64,000 nt of DNA from Candidatus Binatia bacterium (lineage in GTDB: Bacteria > Desulfobacterota > Binatia > HRBIN30): the NCBI GenBank assembly GCA_038245295.1, contig JBBRSP010000011.1, positions 97,812-161,811 on the forward strand, in the 5' to 3' direction. The notes under the pieces are model-generated. The model was given only the letters and a program-made list of their open reading frames with translations, made no database searches and was not told where the DNA came from. The translations under genes and the position numbers were made by a program. This document shows positions 33,999 to 57,405 of this stretch, piece after piece (position 1 is the first letter of the stretch; every line of letters begins with the position of its first letter).

Positions 33999-34041
33999 CC
34001 CGAGCGCTCGCACGGCGAGCGTCCCGGCCGAGGTGTGGAGC

Positions 34042-34488
34042 ATGCGGTCTTCACCCAATCCAAAATTGGATCGTTTCACGATTTTCAAAGAGCACCTGAA
34101 ACAGCAGGGGCTGAAATCGACGGCGCAGCGTGATGACATCACCCACGTCTTCTTCGAGAGCAAACGCCACATCAGCGTCGACGAACTCTACCGCGCCGTA
34201 CGCGAGGTGAACCCGCACATCGGTTACGCAACGGTGTATCGCACCATGAAGTTGCTCACCGAGTGCGGCCTGGCCGCCGAACGCCACTTCCGCGATGGCG
34301 AGGCGCGCTACGAAATTGCCGAGTCGGCTCATCACGACCACATGATCTGTGAGCGCTGCGGGACGATCGTCGAGTTCGAAGAGGAAGCGATCGAGGCTCT
34401 GCAGGCGAAGGTGGCCGCCCGCCTCGGCTTCCGCTTCACCGGGCACAAGATGGAGCTCTACGGCGTGTGCCGAAAGTGCCAGCGCTAG
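34042..34488 (+). CDS. fur: Fur family transcriptional repressor
   Basis: GLKSTAQR, H.SVDELY, ATVYRTMKLL, HHDHMICERCG, GVCRKC. Confidence 0.9.
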   Translation: MRSSPNPKLDRFTIFKEHLKQQGLKSTAQRDDITHVFFESKRHISVDELYRAVREVNPHIGYATVYRTMKLLTECGLAAERHFRDGEARYEIAESAHHDHMICERCGTIVEFEEEAIEALQAKVAARLGFRFTGHKMELYGVCRKCQR

Positions 34489-35960: not shown

Positions 35961-36101
35961 GGTGGGCGTGACTATATCGTTGCGGCGCGACGAGCCAACC
36001 CGGCCGTGTCTCGATGAGACACGCCGAGGCCCCCCCCGACAGCCTCGGGGCAACGCCGGATTTCGGTTGCAAAGTCGTGATTCATCCGCGTAATTAGCCG
36101 C

Positions 36102-37522: not shown

Positions 37523-40500
37523 ATGGTAAGGAGCGTTCCCGTGCAATACGAAAAACTGAGATGGTGGTTGTTAGGGCTCGTCGCGATTGTTGTGGTGCCG
37601 GCTATGGCGGCGGCGCAGAGTGCCGATCTTGGAATCACCAAGAGCGACGGTCTGGTCAACGCTATCCCCGGCAACGCAATCATCTATACGATTGTCGCGT
37701 CGAACGCCGGCCCTGACCCGGTCGTTGGCGCGACCGTTACCGATGCCTTTCCCGTCGCTCTCGGTTTGGTCAGCTGGACCTGTGCTGCGTCGGCAGGATC
37801 GAGCTGCACCGGTGTCGGCGCGGGTGATATCAATGACAACGCCGCCAATCTGCTGGTCGGTGGTACCGCCACGTACACCGTCAACGCGACCATCAACGGC
37901 TCAGCCACGGGAATCCTCAGTAATACGGCTTCGATTGCGCCCCCGGCGTTGACGACGGATCCAGGCCCAACGGCCAACAGTGCAACGGATACGGACAACC
38001 TCACACCAACGGCGAATCTTTCGATTTTCAATACCGACGGCGCCATCAACGAAATCCCCGGCACGGGCATCACCTACACCAGCACCGTCGGCAACGCCGG
38101 TCCCAGTAATGTCACCGGAGCAACCGTCACGGACAATTTCCCGGCGGCGCTCACCGGCGTTACGTGGACTTGCAGCGCTAGCGTCGGTTCGTCCTGCACC
38201 TTGGCCAATGCGGGACCGATCTCCGATCCGGTCAACATCCTCTCCGGCGGTACCCTAACCTACACTGTAAACGCGACCATCAGCGCCGCCGCTACGGGTA
38301 ACCTCGTCAACACCGCGACGGTTGTGGTGCCCGGCGGCGTTACCGACCCGGCCGGCGCCAATAATTCTTCCACTGACACCGACGCGCTGCACCCAGAGGG
38401 AGATCTCACCATCACGAAGACCGACGGCTCGGCCACGGCGATCCCCGGCACCGCGATTGTCTACACGATCACCGTCGGGAACAACGGCCCCAGCAACATC
38501 ACCAATGCCGTCGTACAGGATATCTTCCCGGCCACGTTGACCTCGCCCACTTGGACCTGTGTTGCGGGCGGCGGTGGTAGCTGCGGCGCCGCCATGGGCG
38601 CCGGGAATATCTCGACAACGGCCACCCTGCCGGTTGGAGCCACTGCGGTATACACGGTGAACGCAACCATCAGCCCGGCCGCCACCGGGATGCTCACCAA
38701 TGTCGCCAGCATCGCGACCCCGGGAGGTTCGAGCGACCCGACTCCGGCGAATAACGTCGCTGTCGATACGGACACCCTGCAGCCTCAAGCTGACATCACC
38801 ATTGTGAAGACCGATGGCCAGGCGACGGAAGTCCCCGGCACGACGGTCGTCTACACGGTCACGGTCGGCAACAGCGGACCGAGTAACGCCAGCGGTGCCA
38901 TCGTGACGGATGCGTTCCCGGCGATCATGCAGGCGCCGATCAATTGGACCTGTGCGACGGCCGGCGGTGCGTCCTGCACCGCCGCGGGCATGGGGAACAT
39001 CAACGATGTCGTCAACGTGCCCGTTGGTGGTACCGCCACCTACACGGTCACGGCGACGATCAACGCGGCGGCGACGGGTGTCATTTCCAACACCGCCTCG
39101 GTGACTCCACCGGGCGGCGTTACCGACCCGAACATGGCCAACAACAGCTCGACCGACACGGATACGCTGACCCCGCAAGCCAATCTGTCGATCACCAAGA
39201 CCGACGGCTTCCTTACCGCCGTGCCGGGAACAGCAATTGTCTACACAATCAGCGTGACCAACCTTGGTCCGAGCACGGCCCCGAACTCCCTCGTGGCGGA
39301 TACGTTCCCGGCGGCTCTGAGCGGCGTCACCTGGACCTGCCTCGCCAGTGGTGGCTCAACCTGCGGCGCCGGCGGCGCCGGCAATATTGCCGACACGGCC
39401 AATCTTTTGGTCGGCGGTGTGGCTAACTACACCGTCAATGCGACCATCTCGGCGGCTGCCACGGGTATGCTCTCGAACAACGCTTCGGTCACTCCCGGAC
39501 CTGGAATCACCGACACCAATCTGTTGAACAACAGCTCGACCGATACGGATACCCTGACTCCGCAGGCCGATATGGGGGTCACCAAAACCGACGGCGTGGC
39601 AAGTGTGGTTCCCGGTTTGACGACGACCTATACGATCACGGTCACCAATACCGGCCCGAGCAATTCGGTGAATGCGACAGTCCAGGACCTCTTCCCGGCG
39701 GCCGTCTCATCGACGACATGGACGTGCTCAGCGTCGGCTGGGTCGACGTGTACCGGAGCCGGCGTCGGCAACATCAACGACGTAGTCAACGTGTTGGTCG
39801 GTGGAACACTGACCTATTCGGTGATTGCCAACGTTGATCCGTGTGCAACCGGCCTTCTCACCAACACCGCCACCGTGGCGGACGCCGGCGGTACCACCGA
39901 CACCAATGGTACCAACAATGCGGCTTCGGACGTGGATTCGCTGACGCCGCAAGTGGATCTGACGACTACGAAGGTCGACATCAAGGATCCGCAGTACGTC
40001 TGCCGCGAGATCACCTACACGATTACAGTGCAGAACAACGGCCCGTCGTGCGCCACGAACGTCGTCCTCGAAGACTTCGCGCCAACCGACACGACATTCG
40101 TCACCTCGGTTCCCGCGAGCTGCGTCAACGTGGTCGATACCACCACGTGTAATCTCGGTACGCTCGCCCCCGGTGGCAGCTCGGTGGTGACGATCGTCGT
40201 CAACGTCGACTTCGCGGCGAAGGGCACGGTGGTCACGAACACGGCCGTCGCCAGCTCCGATCCTACGGAAACCAACCTCGCCGACAACACTGGAACGGCG
40301 GATACGCGCATCCGCAAGGACGACCCGTATCTGTTCTTCTTGCTGGTGGCTCCCAAGAACCTGCGTATCGATAAGGTCATCGACCAGGTCTATCGCATCA
40401 AGGTTCGCAGCCTGTGCGAACCGTACATCACGACGACCAACGTCACGGTCGACCAGACCATCCCGTCGGAAGTCGACGTTCTGTCGACCAGTATCGTGCC

Positions 40501-41086
40501 CGATGTGCAGACGGATACGGAGCTGACCTGGAACCTGGGTGACATCAACGGTGGGGAGTCCAGGCAGATCATCATTGAGACCCAGCTCAACGATACGGCG
40601 TTGCCCGGGGCTTGCCTCGCCAGCACCGCTACGTTGGATGACGATCAGGGCAATCACATGACGCAGTCGGTGAGCGGCGAGGTGCGCGGCCTGCCGGCAC
40701 AACCGCCGCGCGTTCCACCCGACCTGCGCGTCGCCGTCACCGCGCCGCAGAAATTGCTGCGGACCCGATCGTTGGCGCACTCGATCTCGGTGGTGAACAG
40801 CTCCAAGCAAGCTGCGACCGGTGTAGTCGTCACCCTGGTGGAGCCGTCCGACATCGTCCTGGTGTCTTCAAATCCGCCTGCGACCTCGGAAACGGACGAT
40901 GGTGTAACTCGCACCGTCACCTGGATGTTCGATTCGATTCCGGCGCCCGGACACAAGCGCATCCGCTTGATTCAGAAGGCGACGGTTGCCGCGCCGCTCT
41001 GCGAAGTCCTGGATGTGAACGCCTCGGTGTCGAGCAACGAGGGCGATAGCGACGACGAGACGCGGCACGTCACCGTCCGCCAGTAA
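37523..41086 (+). CDS. Large secreted DUF11 (Ig-like) repeat surface protein
   Basis: Signal peptide; ADL.ITK.DG...YTI.V.N.GP...WTC...C repeats starting at 37622, 38012, 38399, 38789, 39179, 39566 and 39953 (387-390 bp period), plus two divergent C-terminal domains. Confidence 0.9.
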   Translation: MVRSVPVQYEKLRWWLLGLVAIVVVPAMAAAQSADLGITKSDGLVNAIPGNAIIYTIVASNAGPDPVVGATVTDAFPVALGLVSWTCAASAGSSCTGVGAGDINDNAANLLVGGTATYTVNATINGSATGILSNTASIAPPALTTDPGPTANSATDTDNLTPTANLSIFNTDGAINEIPGTGITYTSTVGNAGPSNVTGATVTDNFPAALTGVTWTCSASVGSSCTLANAGPISDPVNILSGGTLTYTVNATISAAATGNLVNTATVVVPGGVTDPAGANNSSTDTDALHPEGDLTITKTDGSATAIPGTAIVYTITVGNNGPSNITNAVVQDIFPATLTSPTWTCVAGGGGSCGAAMGAGNISTTATLPVGATAVYTVNATISPAATGMLTNVASIATPGGSSDPTPANNVAVDTDTLQPQADITIVKTDGQATEVPGTTVVYTVTVGNSGPSNASGAIVTDAFPAIMQAPINWTCATAGGASCTAAGMGNINDVVNVPVGGTATYTVTATINAAATGVISNTASVTPPGGVTDPNMANNSSTDTDTLTPQANLSITKTDGFLTAVPGTAIVYTISVTNLGPSTAPNSLVADTFPAALSGVTWTCLASGGSTCGAGGAGNIADTANLLVGGVANYTVNATISAAATGMLSNNASVTPGPGITDTNLLNNSSTDTDTLTPQADMGVTKTDGVASVVPGLTTTYTITVTNTGPSNSVNATVQDLFPAAVSSTTWTCSASAGSTCTGAGVGNINDVVNVLVGGTLTYSVIANVDPCATGLLTNTATVADAGGTTDTNGTNNAASDVDSLTPQVDLTTTKVDIKDPQYVCREITYTITVQNNGPSCATNVVLEDFAPTDTTFVTSVPASCVNVVDTTTCNLGTLAPGGSSVVTIVVNVDFAAKGTVVTNTAVASSDPTETNLADNTGTADTRIRKDDPYLFFLLVAPKNLRIDKVIDQVYRIKVRSLCEPYITTTNVTVDQTIPSEVDVLSTSIVPDVQTDTELTWNLGDINGGESRQIIIETQLNDTALPGACLASTATLDDDQGNHMTQSVSGEVRGLPAQPPRVPPDLRVAVTAPQKLLRTRSLAHSISVVNSSKQAATGVVVTLVEPSDIVLVSSNPPATSETDDGVTRTVTWMFDSIPAPGHKRIRLIQKATVAAPLCEVLDVNASVSSNEGDSDDETRHVTVRQ

Positions 41087-47480: not shown

Positions 47481-47933
47481 CTAAGACATCCCGGAGTCGC
47501 CGTTCTCCAGATCCTCGGCGCGCAACGGCGCCACGTGGATGCTCTCGTAGCGTCGCAGCAAAACTTTCCCCGGCTCGAATCCGCGTGGCTTGCTCACGTC
47601 GGCGCACTGGGCAACATGCACCGTTGCGGTCTTCGCATTGCGCCCCTTGGAGTACCCGGCAGCCAACCCGGCGGCGAAGCGCAGGGTTTCGCGGGGCAGC
47701 TTCGGCAATTTGTCCGGATTGCGCACGACGACGTGGGAGCCGGAGTCGCCGGACAGGTGAAACCAGAAATCCTGCGGCGCGCCCAACTTGAGCGATAGGG
47801 TGTCGTTCTCGACCGCCGTCTTACCGACGAGCACGATGAAACCCTCCGGCGATACGAAGCGCCGCGCGATCCGTTTACCCTCGAAGATGCCGGCGTCCGG
47901 GTCTGTGACTCCGGGAGGACGACTGCCGCTCAT
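47481..47933 (-). CDS. NFACT RNA-binding domain protein (DUF814)
   Basis: LVGKTAVENDTL, WFHLSGDSGSHVV, AAGYSK, KPRGFEPGKV; ATGA-coupled to the upstream crotonase. Confidence 0.85.
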   Translation of the reverse strand: MSGSRPPGVTDPDAGIFEGKRIARRFVSPEGFIVLVGKTAVENDTLSLKLGAPQDFWFHLSGDSGSHVVVRNPDKLPKLPRETLRFAAGLAAGYSKGRNAKTATVHVAQCADVSKPRGFEPGKVLLRRYESIHVAPLRAEDLENGDSGMS

Positions 47934-48613
47934 TTGCCGGCGCTGAGGTCGGCCCGCTGCATGATCGAGTGTGCCTCGTAGTACATGCCGCGTTTGATCG
48001 CGCCCATCGTGCCACGATCTTTGTCGGTCAGGGCAGCAACCCGTTCGATGGCATTGCCCACGACATCTGTCACCGCCGCCGTTCCATCCACGACGCCGAG
48101 GGTGACGCAGTCCGCGGCGTTGACGCGTTTGCCGCTCAACAACAGGTCGCGCAACACACCGGGTGTCAGCCGGGTTTTGATCAGGGCCATCATGCCAGGA
48201 GCGAAGGGCATGCGTAGGTCGATCTCCGGTAGGCAAAAATAGCCGCGATCGGCGCGCATGATTCGGAAGTCGTGCGCCAAAGAGAGCATGGCGCCGCCGG
48301 CAAAGGCGTGACCGTTCATCGCCGCGGCGGTTGCCATGGGAAAGGTCATCAGGCGACCGAGCATCTTGATCAGATCGGCGACGACTGCCGTGAACTGCGG
48401 TGCGCCTTCTCCCATCAACCAATCGAGATCGAGGCCGTTCGAATAGAACTTGTCTTCGCCGGTGGTGACCAGCGCGGCTGGCCCTTCGGAACGCTCCACT
48501 TCGTCGAGCGCGGCATTGAAGTCGTCGATGAAAATGCGATTGAAGCGATTCTCCCCGGCGCGCATGGTCAGCACGAAAACCGACCCTTCTCGTTTGAGAT
48601 CAATCACTGACAC
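47930..48613 (-). CDS. Enoyl-CoA hydratase/isomerase (delta3,delta2-enoyl-CoA isomerase-like)
   Basis: ENRFN, KFYSNGLDL, NGHAFAGG, CLPEIDL. Confidence 0.88.
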   Translation of the reverse strand: MSVIDLKREGSVFVLTMRAGENRFNRIFIDDFNAALDEVERSEGPAALVTTGEDKFYSNGLDLDWLMGEGAPQFTAVVADLIKMLGRLMTFPMATAAAMNGHAFAGGAMLSLAHDFRIMRADRGYFCLPEIDLRMPFAPGMMALIKTRLTPGVLRDLLLSGKRVNAADCVTLGVVDGTAAVTDVVGNAIERVAALTDKDRGTMGAIKRGMYYEAHSIMQRADLSAGK

Positions 48614-48668: not shown

Positions 48669-49739
48669 TCACCCAAGCACCAATGGTCCTGTCTTGAGCC
48701 GCGGCAACACGTAGCGACCAACGTAGTCACACTCATCCGCGTGCGTATAACCGGAAAGGATGAAGCCACGCAGGCCGAGGTCGATGTACGCCTGCAGTTT
48801 GCTTACGACTTGATCCGGGTCGCCGACCAGTGCCGCGCCGCAGCCGCTGCGGGCGCGGCCAATGCCGGTCCAGAGGTTGTCTTCGACGAAGCCTTCGTCG
48901 TCCGCCGCGCCACGCATTTCAGCCTGGCGGCGCACTCCTTCGGAGGCATGATCGAGCGACTTCTTCCGGATTTCTTCCCCGGTTCCGGCGTCGAGTTTGC
49001 TCATCAGTTTGCGCGCCGCCGCTCGCGCCTGCGCTTCGGTTTCGCGCACGATCATGTGGATACGGTAGCCGAACTGCAGTTCGCGACCGACACGGCTGGC
49101 CCGCTGGCGCATGTCGTCGAGAAGTGTTCGCAGGGCCGGTATCGGCTCCGGCCACATCAAGAATACATCAGCCTCGGCGGCGGCCGCATTGCGCGCGTCC
49201 TCCGAGAGGCCGCCGAAATAAAAGGGCGGGCACCGACGGCCTACCGGTTGTGCGGCTGGGGCATCGAGATCGAGCTGGAAAAACTCGCCCTGGTGGTGAA
49301 TCGCCTCGCCATTCAGGAGAGCACGGAGAATCTGCATGCATTCACGGGTGCGTTGATAACGCGGCGCCGACGGTAGAGGTGCGCCGGGCAGATCACTCGA
49401 AATGATGTTGATCGTCAGTCGGCCGCCGAGCATCTGGTCGAGTGTTGCCAGCTGACGCGCCAATTGGGGCGGAAACATTTCGCCGCATCGCACGGCGACC
49501 AGTAGCCGTATACGCGACGTCAGTGGGGCAACTGCCGCGGCGAAGGCGACGCTATCGATGCCAAGGTTGTACCCCGACGGGCACAGTATGTTGTTGAAGC
49601 CATTCGCCTCGGCGCGTAGCAGGATATCGCGACAATGAGGGAAGGAGCTGCGCAGGGCTGGATTCGGTACGCCTAGATACTCGTAGTCATCATCGCACAG
49701 CGGCGCGAACCACGCGACCTCAACACTCGGGCGTTCCAT
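48669..49739 (-). CDS. smoC: LLM-class flavin-dependent monooxygenase, sulfoquinovose monooxygenase (SmoC/SquD)-like
   Basis: WFAPLCDDDY..LGVP...LRSS..HC, NILCPSGY, AVRCGE, NIISSDLPG, LWTGIGRARSGCGAALVG, FILSGY, matching the SmoC subfamily as I recall it. Confidence 0.75.
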   Translation of the reverse strand: MERPSVEVAWFAPLCDDDYEYLGVPNPALRSSFPHCRDILLRAEANGFNNILCPSGYNLGIDSVAFAAAVAPLTSRIRLLVAVRCGEMFPPQLARQLATLDQMLGGRLTINIISSDLPGAPLPSAPRYQRTRECMQILRALLNGEAIHHQGEFFQLDLDAPAAQPVGRRCPPFYFGGLSEDARNAAAAEADVFLMWPEPIPALRTLLDDMRQRASRVGRELQFGYRIHMIVRETEAQARAAARKLMSKLDAGTGEEIRKKSLDHASEGVRRQAEMRGAADDEGFVEDNLWTGIGRARSGCGAALVGDPDQVVSKLQAYIDLGLRGFILSGYTHADECDYVGRYVLPRLKTGPLVLG

Positions 49740-49764
49740 CAGCGAGGCCTCACTCCTTCGTGTG

Positions 49765-50682
49765 TCATGGCAACTTCTTTCCCTGGGATGCTTGGACGAT
49801 CGAGTACCAATCGTGGCGTGTCAGCTTGACGCGGAACGCTGCCAGGCAATCGCGAATGCGTTCGACACGCTGGGTGCCGATGATCGGAATAATGCCGGCC
49901 GGATGCGCCAACAAGAACGCCAGCGCGATGGCGCTGCGCGGCACACCCTCACGCGCCGCGAGGGTGTCGAGGCAGGTGATGAGCCCCGCCAAACGTTCAC
50001 CGTCGCGCTCCTTGATGGCTTGCTCCGGCGTCAGGCCGAGTTTGCCGCCGGCCAGCGGACTCCAGGCGAGCGGTGTCACCTTGGTGCGCAGGCACTGGTC
50101 GAGGACGCCGTCGCGCAGGGGTTCGAGCCACCAGCAGCTGAGCTCGGGTTGGTGCGTTGTAATCGGGAAGGGCAGGTAGTGCTGCAACGCCTCGAACTGT
50201 GCGGCGCGATGGTTCGAAACACCTACCTCGCGAATCTTCCCGTGCTGCCGCAAGCTGCTCAGCGCCGCCGCGGTCTCCTCGGGATGGCCGAGCATGTCGG
50301 GCCGATGGATTTGGTAGAGGTCGATGGCATCGATGCGCAGTCGACGTAGCGAGGCCTCGCATGATTCGAGAATATGAGCGCGGCTCGAATCGTAGGGCAA
50401 ACCCGGAACGATGCCGCACTTGGTGGCGATCAGCATGCTGTCGCGCAGATGAGGGGTCTCATCCAACACTTTGCCGAACAGCTCCTCCGCGGCGCCGTTG
50501 CCGCCGTAAATGTCGGCGTGATCGAACAGCGTGATGCCGGTCTCGAGAGCAGCTTCGATCTTGTCGCGTGAGCTACGGAGATCACTGCCCGCAAACCGCC
50601 AACAACCGTAGGCGATAGGAAAGGCGCGCAACGAAGTGATCCCCAGGGGGCGTGTCGCTGTCGAAATCGGGATGGCTTCCAT
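49765..50682 (-). CDS. smoB: Aldo/keto reductase (YdhF-like), 6-oxo-glucose reductase (SmoB/SquF)-like
   Basis: YGCWR, FDHADIYG, ATKCGI, IHRPD, GVSN, AWSPLAGG, LAHPAGIIPIIGT; stop 25 bp before the smoC-like start. Confidence 0.65.
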   Translation of the reverse strand: MEAIPISTATRPLGITSLRAFPIAYGCWRFAGSDLRSSRDKIEAALETGITLFDHADIYGGNGAAEELFGKVLDETPHLRDSMLIATKCGIVPGLPYDSSRAHILESCEASLRRLRIDAIDLYQIHRPDMLGHPEETAAALSSLRQHGKIREVGVSNHRAAQFEALQHYLPFPITTHQPELSCWWLEPLRDGVLDQCLRTKVTPLAWSPLAGGKLGLTPEQAIKERDGERLAGLITCLDTLAAREGVPRSAIALAFLLAHPAGIIPIIGTQRVERIRDCLAAFRVKLTRHDWYSIVQASQGKKLP

Positions 50683-50742
50683 TTCAGGGGCACGCTACCA
50701 GAGCCTTTTGTCTGTTTCGAGCAGGGTGTGAGGGAGGAATCG

Positions 50743-51810
50743 ATGGCGGACCGGATTCGTTACGGCATCATTGGCTCCGGCATGATGGGCTGCGAGCACA
50801 TTCTCAACATCAAGCTCACCCCGGATGCCGAAGTAGTGGCGATCGCCGACTCTAACGAGACCAGCCGTCACTGGGGCCGCAGTCTCGGTGGTGAGGGTGT
50901 CCAGGTCTATACCGATTACCGCGATCTCCTGCGCGAAGCGCCGGTTGATGCGGTGGTCATCGCCACACCCAACTTTACGCATCATGACGTCCTGCAGGAC
51001 GTCTTTCGTACCAACAAACACGTTATGGTCGAGAAGCCGTTGTGCACCGTCGTCGACGATTGCCATCGGGTCGTCGACCAGGCCGCCAAACATGCCGGTG
51101 TCGTCTGGGTCGGCATGGAGTACCGCTACATGAAAGCGGTCGGCCGCCTCATCGAAGCAGCGCATGCCGGCAGTATCGGCGCCTTGCGCATGATCGCCAT
51201 TCGCGAGCATCGCTTCCCATTCCTTCCGAAGGTCGACGACTGGAACCGCTTCAATCGCAACACCGGTGGCACATTGGTCGAAAAGTGCTGCCACTTCTTC
51301 GACCTGATGAATTTGATCGCGCTCAGTCGCCCGCGGTGCGTCTATGCGTCGGGAGCGCAGGACTTCAACCATCTGGACGAACGCTATGACGGCAAGATAC
51401 CGGACATCATCGATAACGCCTTCACCGTCGTCGACTACGACGGCGGCATCCGCGCCATGCTCGATCTCTGCATGTTTGCCGAAGGATCGCTGCACGAGGT
51501 GGAGATCGCCGTGACCGGGGTCGGTGGCAAGCTGCAGGCTTTCGAGCCCGATCACGAGTTTGTCCGCTGCCCGCGCGGCGGCGGCGAGCCGCGTCGCGAG
51601 CGTTTCGATCTCGAGGGCGGGGTGCAGGCCGCCGGCGCCCACCACGGCTCAACGTATTTCGAGCACCTCGCCTTTCAGGAGGCGATTCGTCGCGGCCTGC
51701 CGCCGCAGGTGTCGATCGAAGACGGCGCGCTTGCCGTCGGCGTCGGCGCTGCGGCCGAACAGTCGATCCGCGAACATCGTGTCGTCGAGCTGAAGGAATT
51801 GGGGTTCTGA
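50743..51810 (+). CDS. sqgA: Gfo/Idh/MocA-fold protein, NAD+-dependent sulfoquinovosidase (GH188/SqgA)-like
   Basis: GIIGSGMMG.EH, VEKP, MEYRY, EHRFPFLPKVDDWNRFNRNTGGTLVEKCCHFFDLM, NHLDERYDG, LCMFAEGS, HHGSTY. Confidence 0.7.
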   Translation: MADRIRYGIIGSGMMGCEHILNIKLTPDAEVVAIADSNETSRHWGRSLGGEGVQVYTDYRDLLREAPVDAVVIATPNFTHHDVLQDVFRTNKHVMVEKPLCTVVDDCHRVVDQAAKHAGVVWVGMEYRYMKAVGRLIEAAHAGSIGALRMIAIREHRFPFLPKVDDWNRFNRNTGGTLVEKCCHFFDLMNLIALSRPRCVYASGAQDFNHLDERYDGKIPDIIDNAFTVVDYDGGIRAMLDLCMFAEGSLHEVEIAVTGVGGKLQAFEPDHEFVRCPRGGGEPRRERFDLEGGVQAAGAHHGSTYFEHLAFQEAIRRGLPPQVSIEDGALAVGVGAAAEQSIREHRVVELKELGF

Positions 51811-51812
51811 AG

Positions 51813-52853
51813 ATTGAGTCGCAACGCGAGAGGGCGCCTGATGCGGTTGGTAGCGCTCGTGTCACCGTACTCTTGCCGGCATACAACGCCGCGCCAACAC
51901 TCGGCGTCTGCCTTCGCAGCATCGCGCGGCAAACGATCTCCGATTGGCAATGCCTGATTGTTGACGACGGTTCGACCGACGACACGGCCGCGATTGCTGC
52001 CGAGCACGCCGCCGCCGATAGGCGAGTGCGCGTGCGGCGACTCCCGCATGGCGGGCTCGTGACAGCTTTGAATGCCGGATTGGCAGAGTGTCGCACGCCG
52101 TTCGTCGCGCGGATGGATGCCGACGACCTCATGCATCGTGAACGTTTGCGGCTGCAACTCGCCGCGCTCGAGAACGACCCGACCCTGGCCGGTGTCGGCA
52201 GCCACGTCCGTCTCTTTCCCCGCCTCGGACTTAAGGACGGACGTCGTGCTTACGAGGCATGGCTCAACTCGATCGACTCGCCTGAACGAATCGCCCTTGA
52301 TCGCTTCATCGATTGCCCCGTGGTTCATCCCACGCTGACCTTCCGTCGCGCCGTGTTGCAGGAGTTCGCCTACCAAGACCGGGGGTGGCCGGAAGATTCC
52401 GACCTGATTCTCCGCCTGCACGCCGCCGGGCAGCGGATTGGCATCGTCAAGCGCCGATTGCTCGCCTGGCGCGACCACGCCAGTCGATTGTCGCGCACGG
52501 CGCCGAACTGTTCTCTAGATCGGATCATGGCGTGTCGAGCGCTGTTCCTGGCGACGGATTTCCTGGCTGGGCACGAGGACTACGTCCTGTGGGGCTATGG
52601 CGAGACGGGCCGTGACTTGCGCCGAGCGCTGTTGCCTTACGCGAAGACGGCCGCCTGTGTGGTTGAGGTGAATCCGCGCCGCATCGGCAACACGATCCAC
52701 GGTGCTCCCGTGATCGGAATCGACAATCTCGGTGCTCTACTCGGCCGCAAGATGATCGTCTCGGTTGCCGGTGCCGAGCCGCGACGTCTCATTCGCGCCG
52801 CTCTGGGCGACGTCGGGTTCACCGAAGGTGTCGACTTCGTTTGCGCCGCTTAG
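51813..52853 (+). CDS. Glycosyltransferase family 2 with C-terminal Rossmann-like domain; start codon uncertain
   Basis: VTVLLPAYNA, VDDGSTD, ARMDADD, WPEDSDL, LWGYGETGR; the first canonical start (TTG 51873) lies inside the conserved first strand. Confidence 0.85.
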   Translation: MESQRERAPDAVGSARVTVLLPAYNAAPTLGVCLRSIARQTISDWQCLIVDDGSTDDTAAIAAEHAAADRRVRVRRLPHGGLVTALNAGLAECRTPFVARMDADDLMHRERLRLQLAALENDPTLAGVGSHVRLFPRLGLKDGRRAYEAWLNSIDSPERIALDRFIDCPVVHPTLTFRRAVLQEFAYQDRGWPEDSDLILRLHAAGQRIGIVKRRLLAWRDHASRLSRTAPNCSLDRIMACRALFLATDFLAGHEDYVLWGYGETGRDLRRALLPYAKTAACVVEVNPRRIGNTIHGAPVIGIDNLGALLGRKMIVSVAGAEPRRLIRAALGDVGFTEGVDFVCAA

Positions 52854-52868
52854 CGGCGGTTGATCGTA

Positions 52869-54629
52869 TCAATCCGCCGCGTTGGTGGGCGCCGGATGAA
52901 GGGCCTCCAACGCATCGATTGCCTTGCGCAGCCCAGCCTCCACATCCACCTGAGCGGCGAAGGCTCGGGCGCGGCGCTGCAATCCCTTGTCGTTCAACGC
53001 CGCATGGATTGTTCGCCGCAGCATGTCCGACGAGTCGGCGGCGGATGCCACAACGCCCAATCGGCGTTGTTCGACGCAGGCCGCAACGGCGTGTTGGTCG
53101 CGGCCCATCGGTGTGCACACAAGAGGCACCCCGGTGGTGACCGCGGCCATGACGGTCCCATGCCCGGCATGTGTCACCACCAGGCTGGCGTGCGGCAACA
53201 CCCAGGCGTGTGGCACGAAGGGCTGCGCCACGGCGTTGTCCGGCAACTGCAGCTCTTCGGCCCTGATGGCGTGTCCGAGAGTGAACAGGACGCGGGCTGG
53301 AAGGCTGGCGACGGCGTCGGCGACGCGCTGCAGCGTCGCCACCTGATTCTGGAAGCTGGTGCTGTAGCTGACGACGATGAGTGGGCGAGTATCGGTCTCC
53401 GGCCACGGTAGGGAGTAGGCGGCTGTCGATTGGGCTCGAGTGAGGGGGCCGACGTAGTGCAGCTGGGGTGGTCGGTCCTGCGGCGCGACATCGAAGGCTT
53501 CCAACGTGAACGCGATGATCGCGTCCAACTCCTCGGCGACGCGACGTTGGTCGACGACGGCTGACAAACCAAACTTGCTGCGTACGGCATTGAGGGGATC
53601 CAGGGCGGCGCCGGTCATACGGCCCGGGCTGTTGGCGATCGCGCCATAGACGGTGTGCCAGAGCATGGCGGTTGGCAGGCCGGTGCTCTTAGCCGCGGCG
53701 GCGGCCGTCATCAGTATCTGATCGACGAGGATCGCGTCGGGACGGGCCCGGGAAATCTCGGCGAGCAACGCCTCGCCGTAGCTCGGATTGAAGAAGACGT
53801 CCCGCAGGACGCGTGTCATTTCTTCCTCCGGTGTTTCGTCAAGGCGCTCAGATCCGTGCAGCAGCGGTGGGCCGCCGTACTCAACATGCTGAGCCCCGGC
53901 ACCTGCAATCGCCGCGGCATGTTTGGCGTCGGACAGCACCCGCACGCTGTGGCCGCGTTGACGCAGGCCTCGGATGAGCTCCAGCTCCGGCGGCCAGTTG
54001 CCCGCGGCATCCAAGGTCACCAGGAGGAAATCGAGTTTGTGGTCTGGTCGTGCGGCCGCCCCCGCGCTGGCGATGCGCTTCTCCTCCAGATCGGCAAGGG
54101 TCCTCTGCTTGAGGGCGCGGTGGGTGCGTAGCAATTGGGCGCGGTCCGCTTCGTTCTTGAGCCGCTGTAGCCCCCGCCGCACGATGGCGTCGGCTCGTTC
54201 GACATCCTGCAAGTCGTTGAGGGCGATCTCCAGCATACCGATGTGCGGATAGAGCTCGTTAGGGAACTCATTGGCGATGCTCTGGTACTCGTCGATGGCG
54301 TCGGCGTAGTGTTCGCGCATGCGTCGTCCGATGGCGCCGCTGTAACGCGGTTCGTGCGTCGCGCGGCCTCGTGGGTAGAACAGACTTCCCGTCGGGGACG
54401 CGATCAGGATGGCGAGAAGAGGGGCGAGCAGCATCGCGCCGCTCACCGCGAGTCCGAGGCCAGCCAGCATGGGGAAGGCGCCGCCCGCCTTTAACAAGTG
54501 CCAGGCGACGACGAAGAGTACGCCGGCAAGCGGCGCCCGCCAGGCAAAACCGTTGCGCAGATCAAGGCGATCATTGTTGTCCAAGGCGCCCCAGAGATAG
54601 CCCAGCGCGGTGTGGCAGGTGAAGCGCAA
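52869..54629 (-). CDS. Fusion: membrane/TPR-like N-terminal domain + GT1 (UDP-glycosyltransferase, MGT-like)
   Basis: TM helices and helical repeats in about the first 190 aa; then AAGNWPP, RGHSV, PSPG-like FVPHAWVLPHASLVVTHAGHGTV...PMGRDQ. Confidence 0.85.
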   Translation of the reverse strand: MRFTCHTALGYLWGALDNNDRLDLRNGFAWRAPLAGVLFVVAWHLLKAGGAFPMLAGLGLAVSGAMLLAPLLAILIASPTGSLFYPRGRATHEPRYSGAIGRRMREHYADAIDEYQSIANEFPNELYPHIGMLEIALNDLQDVERADAIVRRGLQRLKNEADRAQLLRTHRALKQRTLADLEEKRIASAGAAARPDHKLDFLLVTLDAAGNWPPELELIRGLRQRGHSVRVLSDAKHAAAIAGAGAQHVEYGGPPLLHGSERLDETPEEEMTRVLRDVFFNPSYGEALLAEISRARPDAILVDQILMTAAAAAKSTGLPTAMLWHTVYGAIANSPGRMTGAALDPLNAVRSKFGLSAVVDQRRVAEELDAIIAFTLEAFDVAPQDRPPQLHYVGPLTRAQSTAAYSLPWPETDTRPLIVVSYSTSFQNQVATLQRVADAVASLPARVLFTLGHAIRAEELQLPDNAVAQPFVPHAWVLPHASLVVTHAGHGTVMAAVTTGVPLVCTPMGRDQHAVAACVEQRRLGVVASAADSSDMLRRTIHAALNDKGLQRRARAFAAQVDVEAGLRKAIDALEALHPAPTNAAD

Positions 54630-54789
54630 ATCGTTTGATTACGTCACCCATCGAGAATCGAGAACCCAATGGTCATCACGCAATCGTCATCCAAGCCGAT
54701 GAAAGTGAGGGTCTGGGGTGCCGGGTGCAGGGTTCGGTCGATACTTAGGAGACTTGCTTCGGAGGTGATGAGTTGGAAAGAGTTGCCGC

Positions 54790-55371
54790 ATGAAGCCCGT
54801 GCCGACCCTCCGCACCGCGCGTCTGCTCCTGCGCCAGTGGCGTGATTCGGATAGCGAGCCGTTTGCCCGCTTGAACGCGGACCCTCGTGTGATGGAGCAC
54901 TTCCCGTCAACCTTGTCGCGGGCTCGAAGTGATTCCCTCGTTGAAGCGAATCGAGTCCATTTCGCGGCGCATGGTTTCGGTCTGTGGGCTGTTGAGGTCG
55001 TCGACGAATCGCCGTTCATCGGCTTTGTCGGTTTGGCTGTTGTGCGCTTCGATTCGCACTTTACGCCAGCGGTGGAGATTGGCTGGCGGCTTGCCGCCGC
55101 GTCCTGGGGCCGTGGCTTTGCCTCGGAAGCGGCGGCGGCGGCGTTGCGGTTCGGCTTTGAAACGCTCGAGCTGAACGAGATCGTCTCGTTGACGGTGCCC
55201 AGGAATCAGCGGTCGCGTGGTGTCATGCAACGGTTGGGGATGCAGCATTCCGCGGCCGACGACTTCGATCATCCGGTGCTCGACAGCGGCCATCCCCTGC
55301 GCCGGCATGTGTTGTATCGCCTGTCGCGCCACCAATGGCTGACTCGTGGTCCCGGCGCGAGCAACGCCTAG
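54790..55371 (+). CDS. GNAT family N-acetyltransferase (RimJ/RimL type)
   Basis: TARLLLRQWR, FGLWAVE, VEIGWRL...WGRGFASEAA, NQRSRGVMQRLGM, HPLRRHVLY. Confidence 0.93.
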   Translation: MKPVPTLRTARLLLRQWRDSDSEPFARLNADPRVMEHFPSTLSRARSDSLVEANRVHFAAHGFGLWAVEVVDESPFIGFVGLAVVRFDSHFTPAVEIGWRLAAASWGRGFASEAAAAALRFGFETLELNEIVSLTVPRNQRSRGVMQRLGMQHSAADDFDHPVLDSGHPLRRHVLYRLSRHQWLTRGPGASNA

Positions 55372-55406
55372 TTCTACCAATAGACTTCACGCGGAGGCTT
55401 GGATGG

Positions 55407-56435
55407 TCACGTCAAGGCACGCAGATCCGTGAGTGCGGCCGCCGCTTCGGACGGCGTGATCTCGCGCAGGCAGTTGTAGTGCCCGAACTGGCAGGTTCGC
55501 TGCAGGCAAGGACTGCAGTCGATACCGCGGTAGAGCACACGCGTGTGCGGCCCGAGTGGGCCGGTGCGCACGGGGTTGGTCGAGCCAAAGATGCCGACGG
55601 TGGGGATGCCGAGTGCGCCGGCAATGTGCATCGAGCCGGAGTCGTTGCCGACAAACCCCTGGCACAATGACAACAGGGCGATGGCTTGTTCGATGGACGT
55701 TTCACCGGCCGCGACGACGGCGCCATATTGTGATGCGGCTGCAATTTCGGTGCACAAGCCACGTTCCGTCGGCGCGCCTAGAAGGACACACTCCGCACCG
55801 TGTCCAACCGACAAGGCGTCGATGAGAGCGCTGTACGACTCCGCCGGCCACTGTTTGGCGGGGCCATACGCCGCACCGGGCGCCAGGGCGATGAGCGGTG
55901 TATCCGGCGCACGCCGACGCGTCGTCAGCCAGGCGCGCATGCTTGTTTGTGCCGGCGGCGAGGCCTCGAGCAGGACATCATCGATGTCCCCGATGATCCC
56001 GAGCGTTTCTCGCAGCATGTCGAGGTATGCCTGTGCCTGGTGACGGTTCGGATTATGCGTGTCGATGGCGGCTCTTGCCGTCAGCAACCAGCCGCGCCCG
56101 TCGGCACTGACCCCGGCTCGGCGCGGAATCGCCGCCAGAGCCGGCCACAGCGCCGCTTCGAAGGAACGGGGGAACAGAATCGCCAGGGTAAAGCGTCGGC
56201 GCCGCAGCTGGCGGATGATTTCGAGATGATCGTTGATGCCGACCACGCCGCGACGACGCTCGTATGGAATGACCTCGTCGATCCACGTGGCGCCGGCGAA
56301 GAAGGAGGCGAGGTCGCGCCGAACCAGGACCGCGATATGTGCCTGTGGGTTGGAACGGCGAACGGCGCGCATGGCGGGCAGGCTGATCACTAGGTCGCCG
56401 AGCCAGTTGACAGCCTTGATGAGAATCCGCTCCAT
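55407..56435 (-). CDS. waaF: Lipopolysaccharide heptosyltransferase II (GT9)
   Basis: NWLGDLV, APGAAYGPAKQWP, NDSGSMHIAGALG, FGSTNP, CSPC. Confidence 0.88.
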   Translation of the reverse strand: MERILIKAVNWLGDLVISLPAMRAVRRSNPQAHIAVLVRRDLASFFAGATWIDEVIPYERRRGVVGINDHLEIIRQLRRRRFTLAILFPRSFEAALWPALAAIPRRAGVSADGRGWLLTARAAIDTHNPNRHQAQAYLDMLRETLGIIGDIDDVLLEASPPAQTSMRAWLTTRRRAPDTPLIALAPGAAYGPAKQWPAESYSALIDALSVGHGAECVLLGAPTERGLCTEIAAASQYGAVVAAGETSIEQAIALLSLCQGFVGNDSGSMHIAGALGIPTVGIFGSTNPVRTGPLGPHTRVLYRGIDCSPCLQRTCQFGHYNCLREITPSEAAAALTDLRALT

Positions 56436-56451
56436 GGGTTGGCTCAAGCGC

Positions 56452-57405
56452 TCAGGCGTTGACCGTATGGATCGGTTTGCCATCGAGGTACGCGCGCACG
56501 TTCCTCATGCTGGTTGCCATCAATCGTCGTCGTGCCGCCAGGCTCGCCCACGCGACATGCGGTGTGATGATACAGCGCGGGACGCGTTGTAGAGGGTTGC
56601 CCTCGCTCATTGGTTCGGCAGAAACGACATCAACGGCTGCACCTGCGAGTGTTCCTCGCATTAGAGCCGACGCCAGGGCGGCCTCATCGATCAAGCCTCC
56701 ACGTGCCGTGTTGATGAGGAAGGCGGTCGGCCTCATGCGTGTCAGCAACGCCTCATTGACGAAGGCGACATTCTTCGGCGTCAGCGGGCAATGTAGAGAA
56801 ATCACGTCGCTCTGAGTGAAGAGATCGCCGAGGGCTAGGCGCGGCATGTCGGTCGCGCTGGCGTCGTTGTGGTCGCCGGCTGCCACGACATTCATTCCAA
56901 ACGCGCGCGCCAGCGTGCCGACGCGGCGTCCGATGCGTCCGTAGCCGACGAGGCCCATCGTCAGGCCGGCAAGCTCGATTGGTGAATGTTGTACGAAGCA
57001 GAAGTCGGGTGAGCGCTGCCAGGCTCCCGCGTGCACGTCGGCGTCGTAGGCACCGACGTGCTGACAGAGCTCGAGCAGCAGGGCCATGACGTGTTGCGCC
57101 ACCGAGTCGGTGCCGTACTCGGGGACATTCGAGACGACGATGCCGTGGCGCTTTGCCGCGGCGATGTCGACGACGTCGTAGCCGGTTGCCAGCACGGCAA
57201 TGAAGCGCAGCTCCGGCAGCTGAGCCAGGAACTCGGCCGGCAGTCGTGTCTTATTTGTCAGGATGATGTCGGCGCCGCGGCTGCGTTCGACAGTCAGGTC
57301 GGGCGGCGTACGATCGAAGACGCTCACCTCGCCCATGCTGTCGAGATCATCCCAGGGATTGTCGCCTGGGTTCAGCGTGTGGCCGTCGAGAACTACGATA
57401 CGCAT
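56452..57405 (-). CDS. D-2-hydroxyacid dehydrogenase (glycerate dehydrogenase / hydroxypyruvate reductase-like)
   Basis: IVVLDGHTLNPGD, LATGYD, GYGRIG, SLHCPL, INTARG, TPHVAW. Confidence 0.9.
   Translation of the reverse strand: MRIVVLDGHTLNPGDNPWDDLDSMGEVSVFDRTPPDLTVERSRGADIILTNKTRLPAEFLAQLPELRFIAVLATGYDVVDIAAAKRHGIVVSNVPEYGTDSVAQHVMALLLELCQHVGAYDADVHAGAWQRSPDFCFVQHSPIELAGLTMGLVGYGRIGRRVGTLARAFGMNVVAAGDHNDASATDMPRLALGDLFTQSDVISLHCPLTPKNVAFVNEALLTRMRPTAFLINTARGGLIDEAALASALMRGTLAGAAVDVVSAEPMSEGNPLQRVPRCIITPHVAWASLAARRRLMATSMRNVRAYLDGKPIHTVNA

What the first reader, a model, noticed from the sequence alone, without database searches (positions are those of the whole stretch)
48669..51810. Compact three-gene sulfoquinovose catabolic cluster (smoC-like, smoB-like, divergent GH188-like)
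Seen: AKR and LLM monooxygenase genes in tandem (25 bp gap), with a Gfo/Idh/MocA gene divergent only 60 bp from the AKR start. Known: the sulfo-SMO pathway (Agrobacterium smo, Novosphingobium squ) uses an LLM monooxygenase to desulfonate sulfoquinovose to 6-oxo-glucose plus sulfite and a YdhF-like AKR to reduce it to glucose. Inference: the three sequences match these subfamilies by motif, and their adjacency makes oxidative SQ desulfonation likely in a lineage (probably Binatia-like) where I do not know it to have been reported. Automated annotation would call them three unrelated oxidoreductases.
Basis: partly seen in the sequence, partly recalled or inferred. Interest (0 to 1): 0.75.

Follow-up and report, generated by a model that had tools for sequence, protein, structure and literature searches.

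The report
Three-gene sulfoquinovose breakdown cluster
These three adjacent genes very probably release the plant sulfosugar sulfoquinovose from its glycosides, strip off its sulfur as sulfite and turn the rest into glucose; the pathway is already known, here found in an uncultured, probably Binatia-like bacterium.

Summary
The window has three genes:
- A luciferase-like monooxygenase, 48669-49739 (-).
- An aldo-keto reductase (AKR), 49765-50682 (-), 25 bp upstream of the monooxygenase.
- A divergent Gfo/Idh/MocA gene, 50743-51810 (+), 60 bp from the AKR start.

The monooxygenase matches the characterised sulfoquinovose (SQ) monooxygenases RoSmoC and AtSmoC at 384 and 379 bits. It matches MsuD at 242 bits and SsuD at 193. 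It groups with the SmoCs, excluding MsuD and SsuD, in 100 of 100 bootstraps.

The Gfo/Idh/MocA protein matches the three solved GH188 NAD+-dependent sulfoquinovosidases at 345, 335 and 298 bits. The next hit scores 104. All nine catalytic and sulfonate-binding residues are kept.

By sequence the AKR is no closer to SmoB than to YdhF (about 41% identity to each). However, an orthologous AKR lies directly upstream of smoC in 58 of 68 informative loci from several phyla. Forty-one of those loci have exactly this layout.

No flavin reductase, transporter or sulfite-handling gene lies in the 64 kb. Such a bare cluster has a precedent in Novosphingobium.

GH188 plus sulfo-SMO clusters were published in 2023-2026. 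This is therefore a new member of a known kind, in a probably Binatia-like lineage not named in the SQ papers searched.

The parts
50743..51810 (+). sqgA: GH188 NAD+-dependent sulfoquinovosidase (Gfo/Idh/MocA fold), 355 aa. It is predicted to release SQ from sulfoquinovosyl glycerol and other SQ glycosides.
   Evidence: PDB phmmer: FlSqgA 8QC2 E 4e-102 (345 bits), ArSqgA 8QC3 E 5e-99 (335 bits), RdSqgA 8ZN9 E 1e-87 (298 bits). The next hit, 3EZY, scores only 104 bits. Identity to ArSqgA is 48%. The ArSqgA residues K107, Y136, E164, R166, L170, K172, E189, H193 and H321 are all conserved, as they are in 59 of 59 smoC-linked homologues. The roles of these residues come from PMC10755693. An RBS, GGGAGGAA, precedes the ATG.
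50683..50742 (.). A 60-bp divergent intergenic region. It holds a candidate promoter for the AKR-smoC operon on the - strand: a -35-like TCGAAA (50715-50720), a 17-nt spacer, and an extended -10-like TGGTAGCGT (TAGCGT at 50692-50697) only 9 nt before the AKR ATG. The AKR has no Shine-Dalgarno sequence, so the mRNA may be leaderless.
   Evidence: Read directly from the sequence. A TAnnnT element 7-9 nt before the AKR ATG recurs in relatives L003, L007, L010, L012-L016. The consensus promoter scan found no full two-hexamer match, so this is inference only.
49765..50682 (-). AKR of the SmoB/SquF/YdhF group, 305 aa. It is the predicted NADPH-dependent 6-oxo-glucose (6-dehydroglucose) reductase that yields glucose.
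   Evidence: Pfam Aldo_ket_red, E 1e-55. The best PDB hit is A. tumefaciens SmoB 7BBY/7BC1 at 178.8 bits, against 165-167 bits for YdhF-type proteins. The catalytic tetrad D71/Y76/K104/H151, plus R152, W232, T284 and R289, are conserved. The K120 loop is deleted and F241 is replaced by G. An orthologue lies directly upstream of smoC in 58 of 68 informative loci. In a neighbour-joining tree AtSmoB is sister to the smoC-linked AKR clade, with YdhF outside.
48669..49739 (-). smoC/squD: FMNH2-dependent sulfoquinovose monooxygenase (luciferase-like monooxygenase), 356 aa. It is predicted to convert SQ to 6-oxo-glucose plus sulfite.
   Evidence: PDB phmmer: RoSmoC 7OH2 E 4e-114 (384 bits), AtSmoC 7OLF E 2e-112 (379 bits), MsuD 242 bits, SsuD 193 bits, SfnG 101 bits. 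The NJ tree places it with the SmoCs, excluding MsuD and SsuD, in 100 of 100 bootstraps. It carries the SmoC state at 55 of 119 discriminating columns, against 20 SsuD-type, and shares the SmoC-specific 6-residue deletion. W206, R236, H238, Y341 and H343, plus the FMN-phosphate residues Y136 and S189, are conserved (alignment; residue list from PMC8795539). An RBS, GGAGTGAGG, lies 8 nt before the ATG.

Best explanation
This is a minimal sulfo-SMO (sulfoquinovose monooxygenase, also called sulfo-ASMO) module with a GH188 gateway enzyme. The predicted steps are:
1. SqgA uses a tightly bound NAD+ to oxidise C3 of a sulfoquinovoside such as sulfoquinovosyl glycerol. It then eliminates the aglycone, re-adds water and reduces C3 again, which frees sulfoquinovose.
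2. SmoC uses O2 and FMNH2 to cleave the C6-S bond, giving sulfite and 6-oxo-glucose. The FMNH2 must come from a flavin reductase encoded elsewhere.
3. The AKR reduces 6-oxo-glucose to glucose with NADPH, and the glucose enters central metabolism.

The AKR and smoC form an operon (25 bp gap, an RBS before smoC). sqgA is transcribed divergently from a shared 60-bp control region.

Shown here: family membership by sequence, conservation of catalytic and ligand-binding residues, and conserved gene linkage. Inferred: the substrates, the cofactor supply, uptake, the fate of the sulfite and the regulation.
For: SmoC identity:
- 384 and 379 bits to the two biochemically characterised SQ monooxygenases, against 242 (MsuD), 193 (SsuD) and 101 (SfnG).
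- 53% identity to RoSmoC, against 40% (MsuD) and 35% (SsuD). The clade with the SmoCs excludes MsuD and SsuD in 100 of 100 bootstraps.
- In a library clustered at 50% identity, full-length representatives fall from about 350-455 bits (50-59% identity) to about 231 bits or less (40% identity or less), which indicates a discrete family.
- SmoC-type residues at 55 of 119 discriminating columns, plus the shared 6-residue deletion.

SqgA identity:
- E 1e-102 to 1e-88 to all three solved GH188 SQases. The next structure scores E 7e-29.
- All nine catalytic and sulfonate-binding residues are invariant.

AKR:
- Catalytic tetrad, R152, W232 and the NADPH 2'-phosphate residues are conserved.
- The best PDB hit is SmoB.

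Linkage:
- 41 of 68 informative loci from Binatia/'Deltaproteobacteria', Myxococcota, Alphaproteobacteria (Parvibaculaceae, Sphingomonadaceae, Hyphomonadaceae) and Actinomycetota (Acidimicrobiia) have the identical layout.
- Of the same 68 loci, 60 have sqgA next to smoC or to the AKR-smoC pair, and 58 have the AKR directly upstream of smoC.
- A ROK-family sugar kinase follows smoC in 9 alphaproteobacterial loci, which fits glucose as the product.

Precedents:
- GH188 genes in sulfo-SMO clusters (PMC10755693).
- sqgA and smoC co-abundant in the ocean (PMC12780224).
- A cluster without a flavin reductase in N. aromaticivorans (PMC9594981).

GC content is uniform across the cluster at about 0.62, so there is no sign of recent acquisition.
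Against: - No enzyme of this window, or of its 74-83%-identical relatives, has been assayed.
- The residues that give SmoC its specificity for SQ are unknown, because no SmoC-SQ complex exists (PMC8795539). Substrate identity therefore rests on about 53% identity plus gene context.
- The AKR is no closer to SmoB than to E. coli YdhF, whose function is unknown. It also lacks the SmoB glucose-contact residue Lys120.
- The 64-kb window has no flavin reductase, sugar or sulfonate transporter, regulator, sulfite exporter or sulfite dehydrogenase.
- Some close relatives (L002, L005, L008, L011, L022) lack the AKR beside smoC.
Confidence: 0.85

Rival explanations
1. The monooxygenase is a generic alkanesulfonate or methanesulfonate monooxygenase (SsuD/MsuD type) used for sulfur scavenging. 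The AKR and the Gfo/Idh/MocA gene are unrelated neighbours.
For: The best NCBIfam models are the SsuD models TIGR03565 and NF001939. The sulfonate-binding residues are shared with MsuD and SsuD. No SQ-specific determinant is known.
Against: The SsuD model scores 258.7 bits against a cut-off of 518.2. SmoC structures score about 140-190 bits higher than MsuD and SsuD. The tree excludes MsuD and SsuD in 100 of 100 bootstraps. The three genes stay together across phyla while no other gene does. No ssuE or ssuABC-type genes are present.
Confidence: 0.03
2. The chemistry is the same, but the physiological substrate or role differs. The module could act on another 6-sulfo-hexoside. It could also serve mainly to salvage sulfur, perhaps from the cell's own sulfolipid, rather than to grow on imported SQ. 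This would explain why there is no transporter and no regulator.
For: There is no uptake or regulatory gene in 64 kb. The module stands alone in most loci. GH188 enzymes accept both alpha- and beta-SQ glycosides. Some relatives place a PlsC-type acyltransferase next to sqgA.
Against: Every residue that contacts the SQ hydroxyls, including the C4-OH ligand E189, and the sulfonate is conserved, which argues for a gluco-configured SQ. Transporters are often unlinked, and SQ clusters are known to use varied transport systems. No SQDG-synthesis gene is seen in the window.
Confidence: 0.08
3. The cluster is an incomplete or decaying remnant. Without its own flavin reductase and transporter it does not function.
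For: No SmoA/SsuE-type gene lies in the window. Only two relatives, L005 and L008, have a Flavin_Reduct gene nearby.
Against: All three reading frames are intact with their catalytic residues. The same bare module is the commonest layout in dozens of species. N. aromaticivorans is reported to run the pathway with an unlinked reductase.
Confidence: 0.04

Closest known systems
Sulfo-SMO gene cluster smoABCDEFGHI of Agrobacterium tumefaciens C58 (Sharma et al. 2022, PMC8795539)
   Same: It has an SQ monooxygenase (SmoC, 52.5% identical to the window protein, with all sulfonate and FMN-phosphate residues shared). It also has an AKR 6-oxo-glucose reductase (SmoB, 41.8% identical, with the same catalytic tetrad and NADPH site). 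The overall logic is the same: SQ glycoside to SQ, then to 6-oxo-glucose plus sulfite, then to glucose.
   Different: Agrobacterium uses a GH31 sulfoquinovosidase (SmoI), where the window has a GH188 enzyme. It also encodes a flavin reductase (SmoA), an ABC importer with binding protein (SmoEFGH) and a regulator (SmoD), none of which is in the window. SmoB has a 9-residue loop carrying Lys120 that the window AKR lacks.
Sulfo-ASMO cluster of Novosphingobium aromaticivorans (SquD and SquF; Liu et al. 2021, as summarised in PMC9594981)
   Same: It has a monooxygenase plus a PF00248 AKR and no flavin reductase in the cluster. The smoC-linked AKR of a Novosphingobium MAG (L055) has the same short loop as the window AKR, and the two are 49% identical. 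The SmoC of L055 is 64% identical to the window protein.
   Different: That cluster was found through its GH31 YihQ-type SQase. In the Sphingomonas and Novosphingobium loci fetched here, as in the window, the gene beside the AKR is a GH188 sqgA.
GH188 sqgA-containing sulfo-SMO clusters (Kaur et al. 2023, PMC10755693; Roseobacter denitrificans SqgA/SmoC, Ma et al. 2025, PMC12780224)
   Same: The enzyme set is the same: a GH188 NAD+-dependent SQase with SmoC and an oxidoreductase, and no GH31 enzyme. The window SqgA scores 298-345 bits against the three solved GH188 structures.
   Different: The host lineage differs: the window is probably Binatia or another 'deltaproteobacterial' MAG group, rather than Roseobacteraceae or Sphingomonadaceae. 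Here the module is bare, with no linked transporter. The window proteins share about 48-53% identity with the characterised enzymes.
SsuD / MsuD / SfnG two-component sulfonate monooxygenases
   Same: They share the luciferase-like TIM-barrel fold, FMNH2 and O2 chemistry, and the W/R/H/Y/H sulfonate-binding constellation.
   Different: Identity is 35-40%. Scores fall below the NCBIfam cut-offs. The window protein carries the SmoC-type N-terminal motif (LCDDDYEYLGVP, against LPTHGDGHYLG), ILCPSGY (against VLIPTGRS), the 6-residue deletion, and WTGIGRARSGCGAALVG. There are no ssuE or ssuABC neighbours.

Membership tests
SQ monooxygenase SmoC/SquD (FMNH2-dependent luciferase-like monooxygenase) | Luciferase-like monooxygenase fold | tested here: met
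   PF00296, E 5e-53, covering residues 31-324.
SQ monooxygenase SmoC/SquD (FMNH2-dependent luciferase-like monooxygenase) | Closer to characterised SmoC enzymes than to SsuD, MsuD or SfnG, and in one clade with them | tested here: met
   384 and 379 bits against 242, 193 and 101. The NJ clade excludes MsuD and SsuD in 100 of 100 bootstraps. 55 SmoC-type against 20 SsuD-type discriminating residues, plus a shared 6-residue deletion.
SQ monooxygenase SmoC/SquD (FMNH2-dependent luciferase-like monooxygenase) | Trp206-Arg236-His238-Tyr341-His343 constellation and the FMN phosphate gate Tyr136/Ser189 (RoSmoC numbering, PMC8795539) | tested here: met
   All seven residues are identical in the HMMER alignment to 7OH2. 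They are also shared with MsuD and SsuD, so they are necessary but not discriminating.
SQ monooxygenase SmoC/SquD (FMNH2-dependent luciferase-like monooxygenase) | Encoded next to a sulfoquinovosidase and a 6-oxo-glucose reductase | tested here: met
   The AKR lies 25 bp upstream and the GH188 gene is divergent at 60 bp. The same linkage occurs in 41 (identical layout) plus 11 (co-directional) of 68 loci.
SQ monooxygenase SmoC/SquD (FMNH2-dependent luciferase-like monooxygenase) | Partner flavin reductase (SmoA/SsuE) in the cluster. This is frequent but not obligatory. | tested here: not met
   No Flavin_Reduct or FMN_red gene was found among the ORFs called in the 64-kb window. tblastn with the L005 reductase finds nothing in the window. 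N. aromaticivorans also lacks one.
SQ monooxygenase SmoC/SquD (FMNH2-dependent luciferase-like monooxygenase) | SQ-specific sulfite release | not testable with these tools
   This needs an enzyme assay.
GH188 NAD+-dependent sulfoquinovosidase (SqgA) | Two-domain Gfo/Idh/MocA architecture, with the C-terminal domain matching GH188 members | tested here: met
   PF01408, PF02894 and PF22725. Full-length matches to FlSqgA, ArSqgA and RdSqgA at E 4e-102, 5e-99 and 1e-87, with the next structure at E 7e-29.
GH188 NAD+-dependent sulfoquinovosidase (SqgA) | Catalytic residues (K107, Y136, H193, H321, E189) and the sulfonate triad (R166, L170 backbone, K172) of ArSqgA | tested here: met
   All are conserved in the window protein and in 59 of 59 smoC-linked homologues.
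GH188 NAD+-dependent sulfoquinovosidase (SqgA) | NAD+-dependent cleavage of SQGro or PNP-SQ, with deuterium incorporation at C2 | not testable with these tools
   This needs an enzyme assay.
6-oxo-glucose reductase SmoB/SquF (AKR) | AKR fold with the Asp-Tyr-Lys-His tetrad | tested here: met
   PF00248, E 1e-55. D, Y, K and H are conserved.
6-oxo-glucose reductase SmoB/SquF (AKR) | NADPH 2'-phosphate site (Thr284, Arg289) and the nicotinamide-stacking Trp232 | tested here: met
   T, R and W are conserved. Phe241, which stacks on the adenine, is replaced by Gly.
6-oxo-glucose reductase SmoB/SquF (AKR) | Glucose-contact residues Arg152 and Lys120 of SmoB | tested here: inconclusive
   Arg152 is kept. 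Lys120 lies in a 9-residue loop that is deleted in the window AKR and in all 44 smoC-linked AKRs examined, including the one from a Novosphingobium MAG.
6-oxo-glucose reductase SmoB/SquF (AKR) | Sequence closer to SmoB than to paralogues of other function (YdhF) | tested here: inconclusive
   178.8 bits against 165-167 bits. 41.8% against 40-41% identity. In the NJ tree AtSmoB is sister to the smoC-linked clade with YdhF outside, but that node has no valid bootstrap value.
6-oxo-glucose reductase SmoB/SquF (AKR) | Gene directly adjacent to smoC | tested here: met
   The gap is 25 bp in the window. An orthologue is directly upstream of smoC in 58 of 68 informative loci.
Alkanesulfonate monooxygenase SsuD (NCBIfam TIGR03565 equivalog) | Score at or above the curated cut-off of 518.2 bits | tested here: not met
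   258.7 bits.

The most novel reading that the evidence does not exclude
The bare three-gene cassette (sqgA divergent from AKR-smoC, with no linked transporter, reductase or regulator) may be the commonest natural form of the sulfo-SMO pathway. If so, it is spread over at least four phylum-level groups: Pseudomonadota, Actinomycetota, Myxococcota and Binatia/'Deltaproteobacteria'. That would make uncultured soil and groundwater lineages such as Binatia unrecognised mineralisers of plant sulfolipid. Lacking any uptake gene, the cassette may in some of these lineages salvage sulfur (and glucose) from SQ glycosides, possibly including the cell's own lipids, rather than support growth on external SQ.
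Probability: 0.3. Interest if true: 0.45.

Novelty: new member of a known kind. Interest (0 to 1): 0.3.

Why it matters
[quoted passage not shown] The chemistry here is not new. The sulfo-SMO pathway and its GH188 gateway were described in 2021-2023 and surveyed up to 2026.

The find does two things:
- It adds a probably Binatia-like, uncultured lineage to the list of likely complete SQ degraders.
- Together with the 85 related loci, it shows that a minimal sqgA | AKR-smoC cassette is the recurrent unit across phyla.

That cassette is a practical marker for annotating metagenomes. NCBI-style family models still label these genes only as generic oxidoreductases.

Tried and rejected
- SsuD/MsuD assignment: rejected. 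The NCBIfam score is half the cut-off and both the tree and the PDB scores favour SmoC.
- inositol 2-dehydrogenase (IolG) or another sugar dehydrogenase for the Gfo/Idh/MocA gene: rejected. The IolG model scores 124 bits against a cut-off of 355, while GH188 structures score 298-345 bits.
- Flavin reductase, transporter, regulator or sulfite genes: Pfam was run on 57 ORFs called across the window and tblastn on the window with a relative's reductase. None was found.
- Enoyl-CoA hydratase-like (ECH) and NFACT-R genes downstream of smoC as part of the module: rejected as general components. They follow smoC only in a few close relatives (L002, L003, L004, L014, L015) and in none of the other loci.
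- GT2 gene 62 bp downstream of sqgA: it is not conserved in any related locus.
- Consensus promoter and terminator scan: no two-hexamer promoter, and terminator-like hairpins no more frequent than in shuffled sequence.
- First tree attempt: it timed out and was redone with a faster distance routine.
- Bootstrap check on the AKR tree: it was invalid because of the way the tree was rooted and is not used.
- Literature search for sulfoquinovose together with Binatia or Binatota: no paper holds sulfoquinovose together with Binatia, and none of the ten papers listed in the Binatota search holds Binatota.
- The window's own genome is not among the GTDB species representatives. The best match there is 81% identical.

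Full report
**Observation.**
The reported interval holds three intact genes:
- A 356-aa ORF at 48669-49739 (-).
- A 305-aa ORF at 49765-50682 (-), 25 bp upstream of the first.
- A + strand ORF ending at 51810. Its best start is the ATG at 50743, preceded by GGGAGGAA, which gives 355 aa and leaves a 60-bp divergent spacer.

Pfam calls them Bac_luciferase, Aldo_ket_red and GFO_IDH_MocA (N- and C-terminal domains). GC content is flat at about 0.62 across the region.

**The monooxygenase.**
NCBIfam's best models are the SsuD models, but they score only 258.7 bits against a cut-off of 518.2. Against solved structures the order is clear:

| Protein (PDB) | Bits |
|---|---|
| RoSmoC (7OH2) | 384 |
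| AtSmoC (7OLF) | 379 |
| MsuD | 242 |
| SsuD | 193 |
| SfnG | 101 |

The entry names come from PMC8795539. Both SmoCs were shown there to release sulfite from SQ and not from SQGro or HEPES.

The sulfonate constellation W206/R236/H238/Y341/H343 and the FMN-phosphate residues Y136/S189 are all identical in the window protein (alignment). They are shared with MsuD and SsuD, so they do not discriminate.

The discriminating evidence is as follows:
- Trimmed-alignment identity is 53% (RoSmoC) and 52.5% (AtSmoC), against 40% (MsuD) and 35% (SsuD).
- A neighbour-joining tree was built from 61 sequences, including full-length representatives of a 1.8-billion-protein library. The clade containing the window protein and both SmoCs excludes MsuD and SsuD in 100 of 100 bootstraps.
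- At 119 columns where both SmoCs differ from both MsuD and SsuD, the window protein has the SmoC residue at 55 and the SsuD-type residue at 20.
- It shares the SmoC-specific 6-residue deletion.

**The Gfo/Idh/MocA protein.**
It matches the three solved GH188 NAD+-dependent sulfoquinovosidases:
- FlSqgA (8QC2), E 4e-102.
- ArSqgA (8QC3), E 5e-99.
- Roseobacter denitrificans SqgA (8ZN9), E 1e-87.

The next structure scores only E 7e-29 (entry identities). Kaur et al. describe the SQ contacts in ArSqgA: K107 and H193 at C3-OH, Y136 at C2-OH, E189 at C4-OH, H321 at C1-OH, and R166, K172 and the L170 backbone on the sulfonate. All of these are conserved in the window protein and in all 59 smoC-linked homologues I aligned.

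**The AKR.**
Its best structural match is A. tumefaciens SmoB at 178.8 bits, but YdhF-type proteins follow at 163-167 bits. Identity is 41.8% to SmoB and 40-41% to YdhF.

The catalytic tetrad, R152, W232 and the NADPH 2'-phosphate residues T284 and R289 are kept. The 9-residue loop carrying the SmoB glucose contact K120 is absent, and F241 is Gly.

The same short loop is found in all 44 smoC-linked AKRs examined, including one from a Novosphingobium MAG. Novosphingobium is the genus in which the AKR SquF was characterised. By sequence alone this gene is 'SmoB/SquF/YdhF-group'. The functional call rests on gene context.

**Context.**
A scan of one genome per species (GTDB) returned 80 SmoC loci at 62-81% identity. 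Five further loci of close relatives came from the protein look-ups.

Sixty-eight of these 85 loci have at least 2.3 kb of sequence upstream of smoC:

| Layout | Loci |
|---|---|
| The window's layout exactly (sqgA divergent, then AKR-smoC) | 41 |
| sqgA-AKR-smoC, co-directional | 11 |
| sqgA divergent directly from smoC, no AKR | 7 |
| AKR-smoC without a nearby sqgA | 5 |

Clustering every ORF of all loci showed that no other family is present in more than 13 loci. The lineage-specific extras include a ROK sugar kinase, MFS transporters, TonB-dependent receptors, a TauD-family dioxygenase and a GST. The three-gene module is therefore the conserved unit.

The 64-kb window itself has no flavin reductase, transporter, regulator or sulfite-handling gene. 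Immediate neighbours are an ECH-like gene, an NFACT-R gene, an SDR, purB and a fused trpE/G on one side. A GT2, a macrolide-GT-like GT1, a GNAT and a GT9 lie on the other.

**Mechanism.**
The following is inferred from the characterised homologues. SqgA frees SQ from SQGro by transient C3 oxidation, elimination, hydration and re-reduction. SmoC, with FMNH2 from an unlinked reductase and O2, gives 6-oxo-glucose and sulfite. The AKR reduces 6-oxo-glucose with NADPH to glucose.

An unlinked reductase has a precedent in N. aromaticivorans.

smoC has its own RBS 8 nt before the ATG. The AKR has no Shine-Dalgarno sequence. Instead a TGGTAGCGT element ends 9 nt before its ATG, and a similar TAnnnT box at 7-9 nt recurs in relatives. 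This suggests a leaderless AKR-smoC transcript, which is untested.

**Lineage.**
The closest SmoC loci (74-81%) are MAGs labelled Candidatus Binatia, 'Deltaproteobacteria' or Myxococcota. The housekeeping PurB of the window has its best named hits (69-79%) in MAGs labelled 'Deltaproteobacteria', Binatia, and inconsistently Acidoferrales and Kryptonia. Binatia-like is plausible but not proven. The window's own genome is not among the species representatives.

**Comparison with what is known.**
- GH188 genes inside sulfo-SMO clusters were reported in 2023. Their family list already includes 'Deltaproteobacteria bacterium', Myxococcales, Acidimicrobiia and Parvibaculum entries.
- sqgA and smoC were analysed together across the oceans in 2025.
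- A 2026 survey noted sulfo-SMO clusters in Actinomycetota and Spirochaetota.
- No paper in the library holds sulfoquinovose together with Binatia, and none of the papers listed in the Binatota search holds Binatota.
- One JGI homologue is already auto-named 'sulfoquinovose monooxygenase'.

**Verdict.**
Novelty is limited to a new host lineage and to the recognition that this bare cassette is the recurrent form. Interest is about 0.3.

Noticed in passing
window 47930-48613 (-) and 47481-47933 (-): A short crotonase-fold (ECH_1) gene lies 55-94 bp downstream of smoC, depending on which start is used (GTG 48613 or ATG 48574). It overlaps by 4 bp a 150-aa NFACT-R (RqcH C-terminal-like) gene. An ECH gene also lies near smoC in close relatives L002-L004, L014 and L015 (the NFACT-R gene only in L003, L004 and L015), but in no other locus. 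Function and any link to SQ metabolism are unknown.
   Followed up: partly
window 50692-50720 (- strand); L003, L007, L010, L012-L016: A conserved TAnnnT (-10-like) box lies 7-9 nt before the AKR start codon, and the AKR has no Shine-Dalgarno sequence. This suggests a leaderless AKR-smoC mRNA. sqgA, by contrast, has a strong RBS.
   Followed up: partly
L002, L005, L006, L008, L011, L022, L032, L075: In these relatives, several of them Binatia-like, sqgA is divergent directly from smoC with no AKR between them. L002 and L005 carry a PlsC-type acyltransferase (PF01553) next to sqgA. L005 and L008 have a Flavin_Reduct gene about 1.5-3 kb from smoC.
   Followed up: partly
L027, L030, L040, L043, L044, L046, L049, L066, L076: A ROK-family sugar kinase gene directly follows smoC in these alphaproteobacterial loci, which fits glucose as the end product. 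Thirteen Parvibaculaceae/Rhodobiaceae-type loci carry a TauD-family dioxygenase nearby.
   Followed up: partly
window 51873-56483: A run of glycosylation-type genes lies beside sqgA: a GT2 (51873-52853 +), a 586-aa macrolide-GT-like GT1 with an N-terminal extension (52869-54629 -), a GNAT (54790-55371 +) and a GT9 heptosyltransferase-like gene (55407-56483 -). Apart from one hit to the GT9-like gene in L014, none of them recurs in the related smoC loci.
   Followed up: partly
window 37523-41086 (+): A 1187-aa protein with seven DUF11 repeats, probably a surface protein.
   Followed up: no
window 34485-36704 (-): A 739-aa photolyase/cryptochrome with a roughly 250-aa N-terminal extension that has no Pfam match. 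A Fur-family regulator gene lies next to it (33961-34488 +).
   Followed up: no
window 2324-28586: A dense acyl-CoA metabolism region: two carboxyltransferases, a biotin carboxylase, ETF alpha and beta with an Fe-S/CCG oxidoreductase, three acyl-CoA dehydrogenases, an acetyl-CoA hydrolase/transferase and an IclR regulator. It fits an aerobic, lipid- or organic-acid-oxidising lifestyle.
   Followed up: no
(record titles): The NCBI organism labels of the nearest MAGs disagree with one another: Binatia, Deltaproteobacteria, Myxococcota, Kryptonia, Acidoferrales, Spirochaetales and Enterobacterales, all for 70-82%-identical proteins. Taxon names attached to these loci should be treated with caution.
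   Followed up: no
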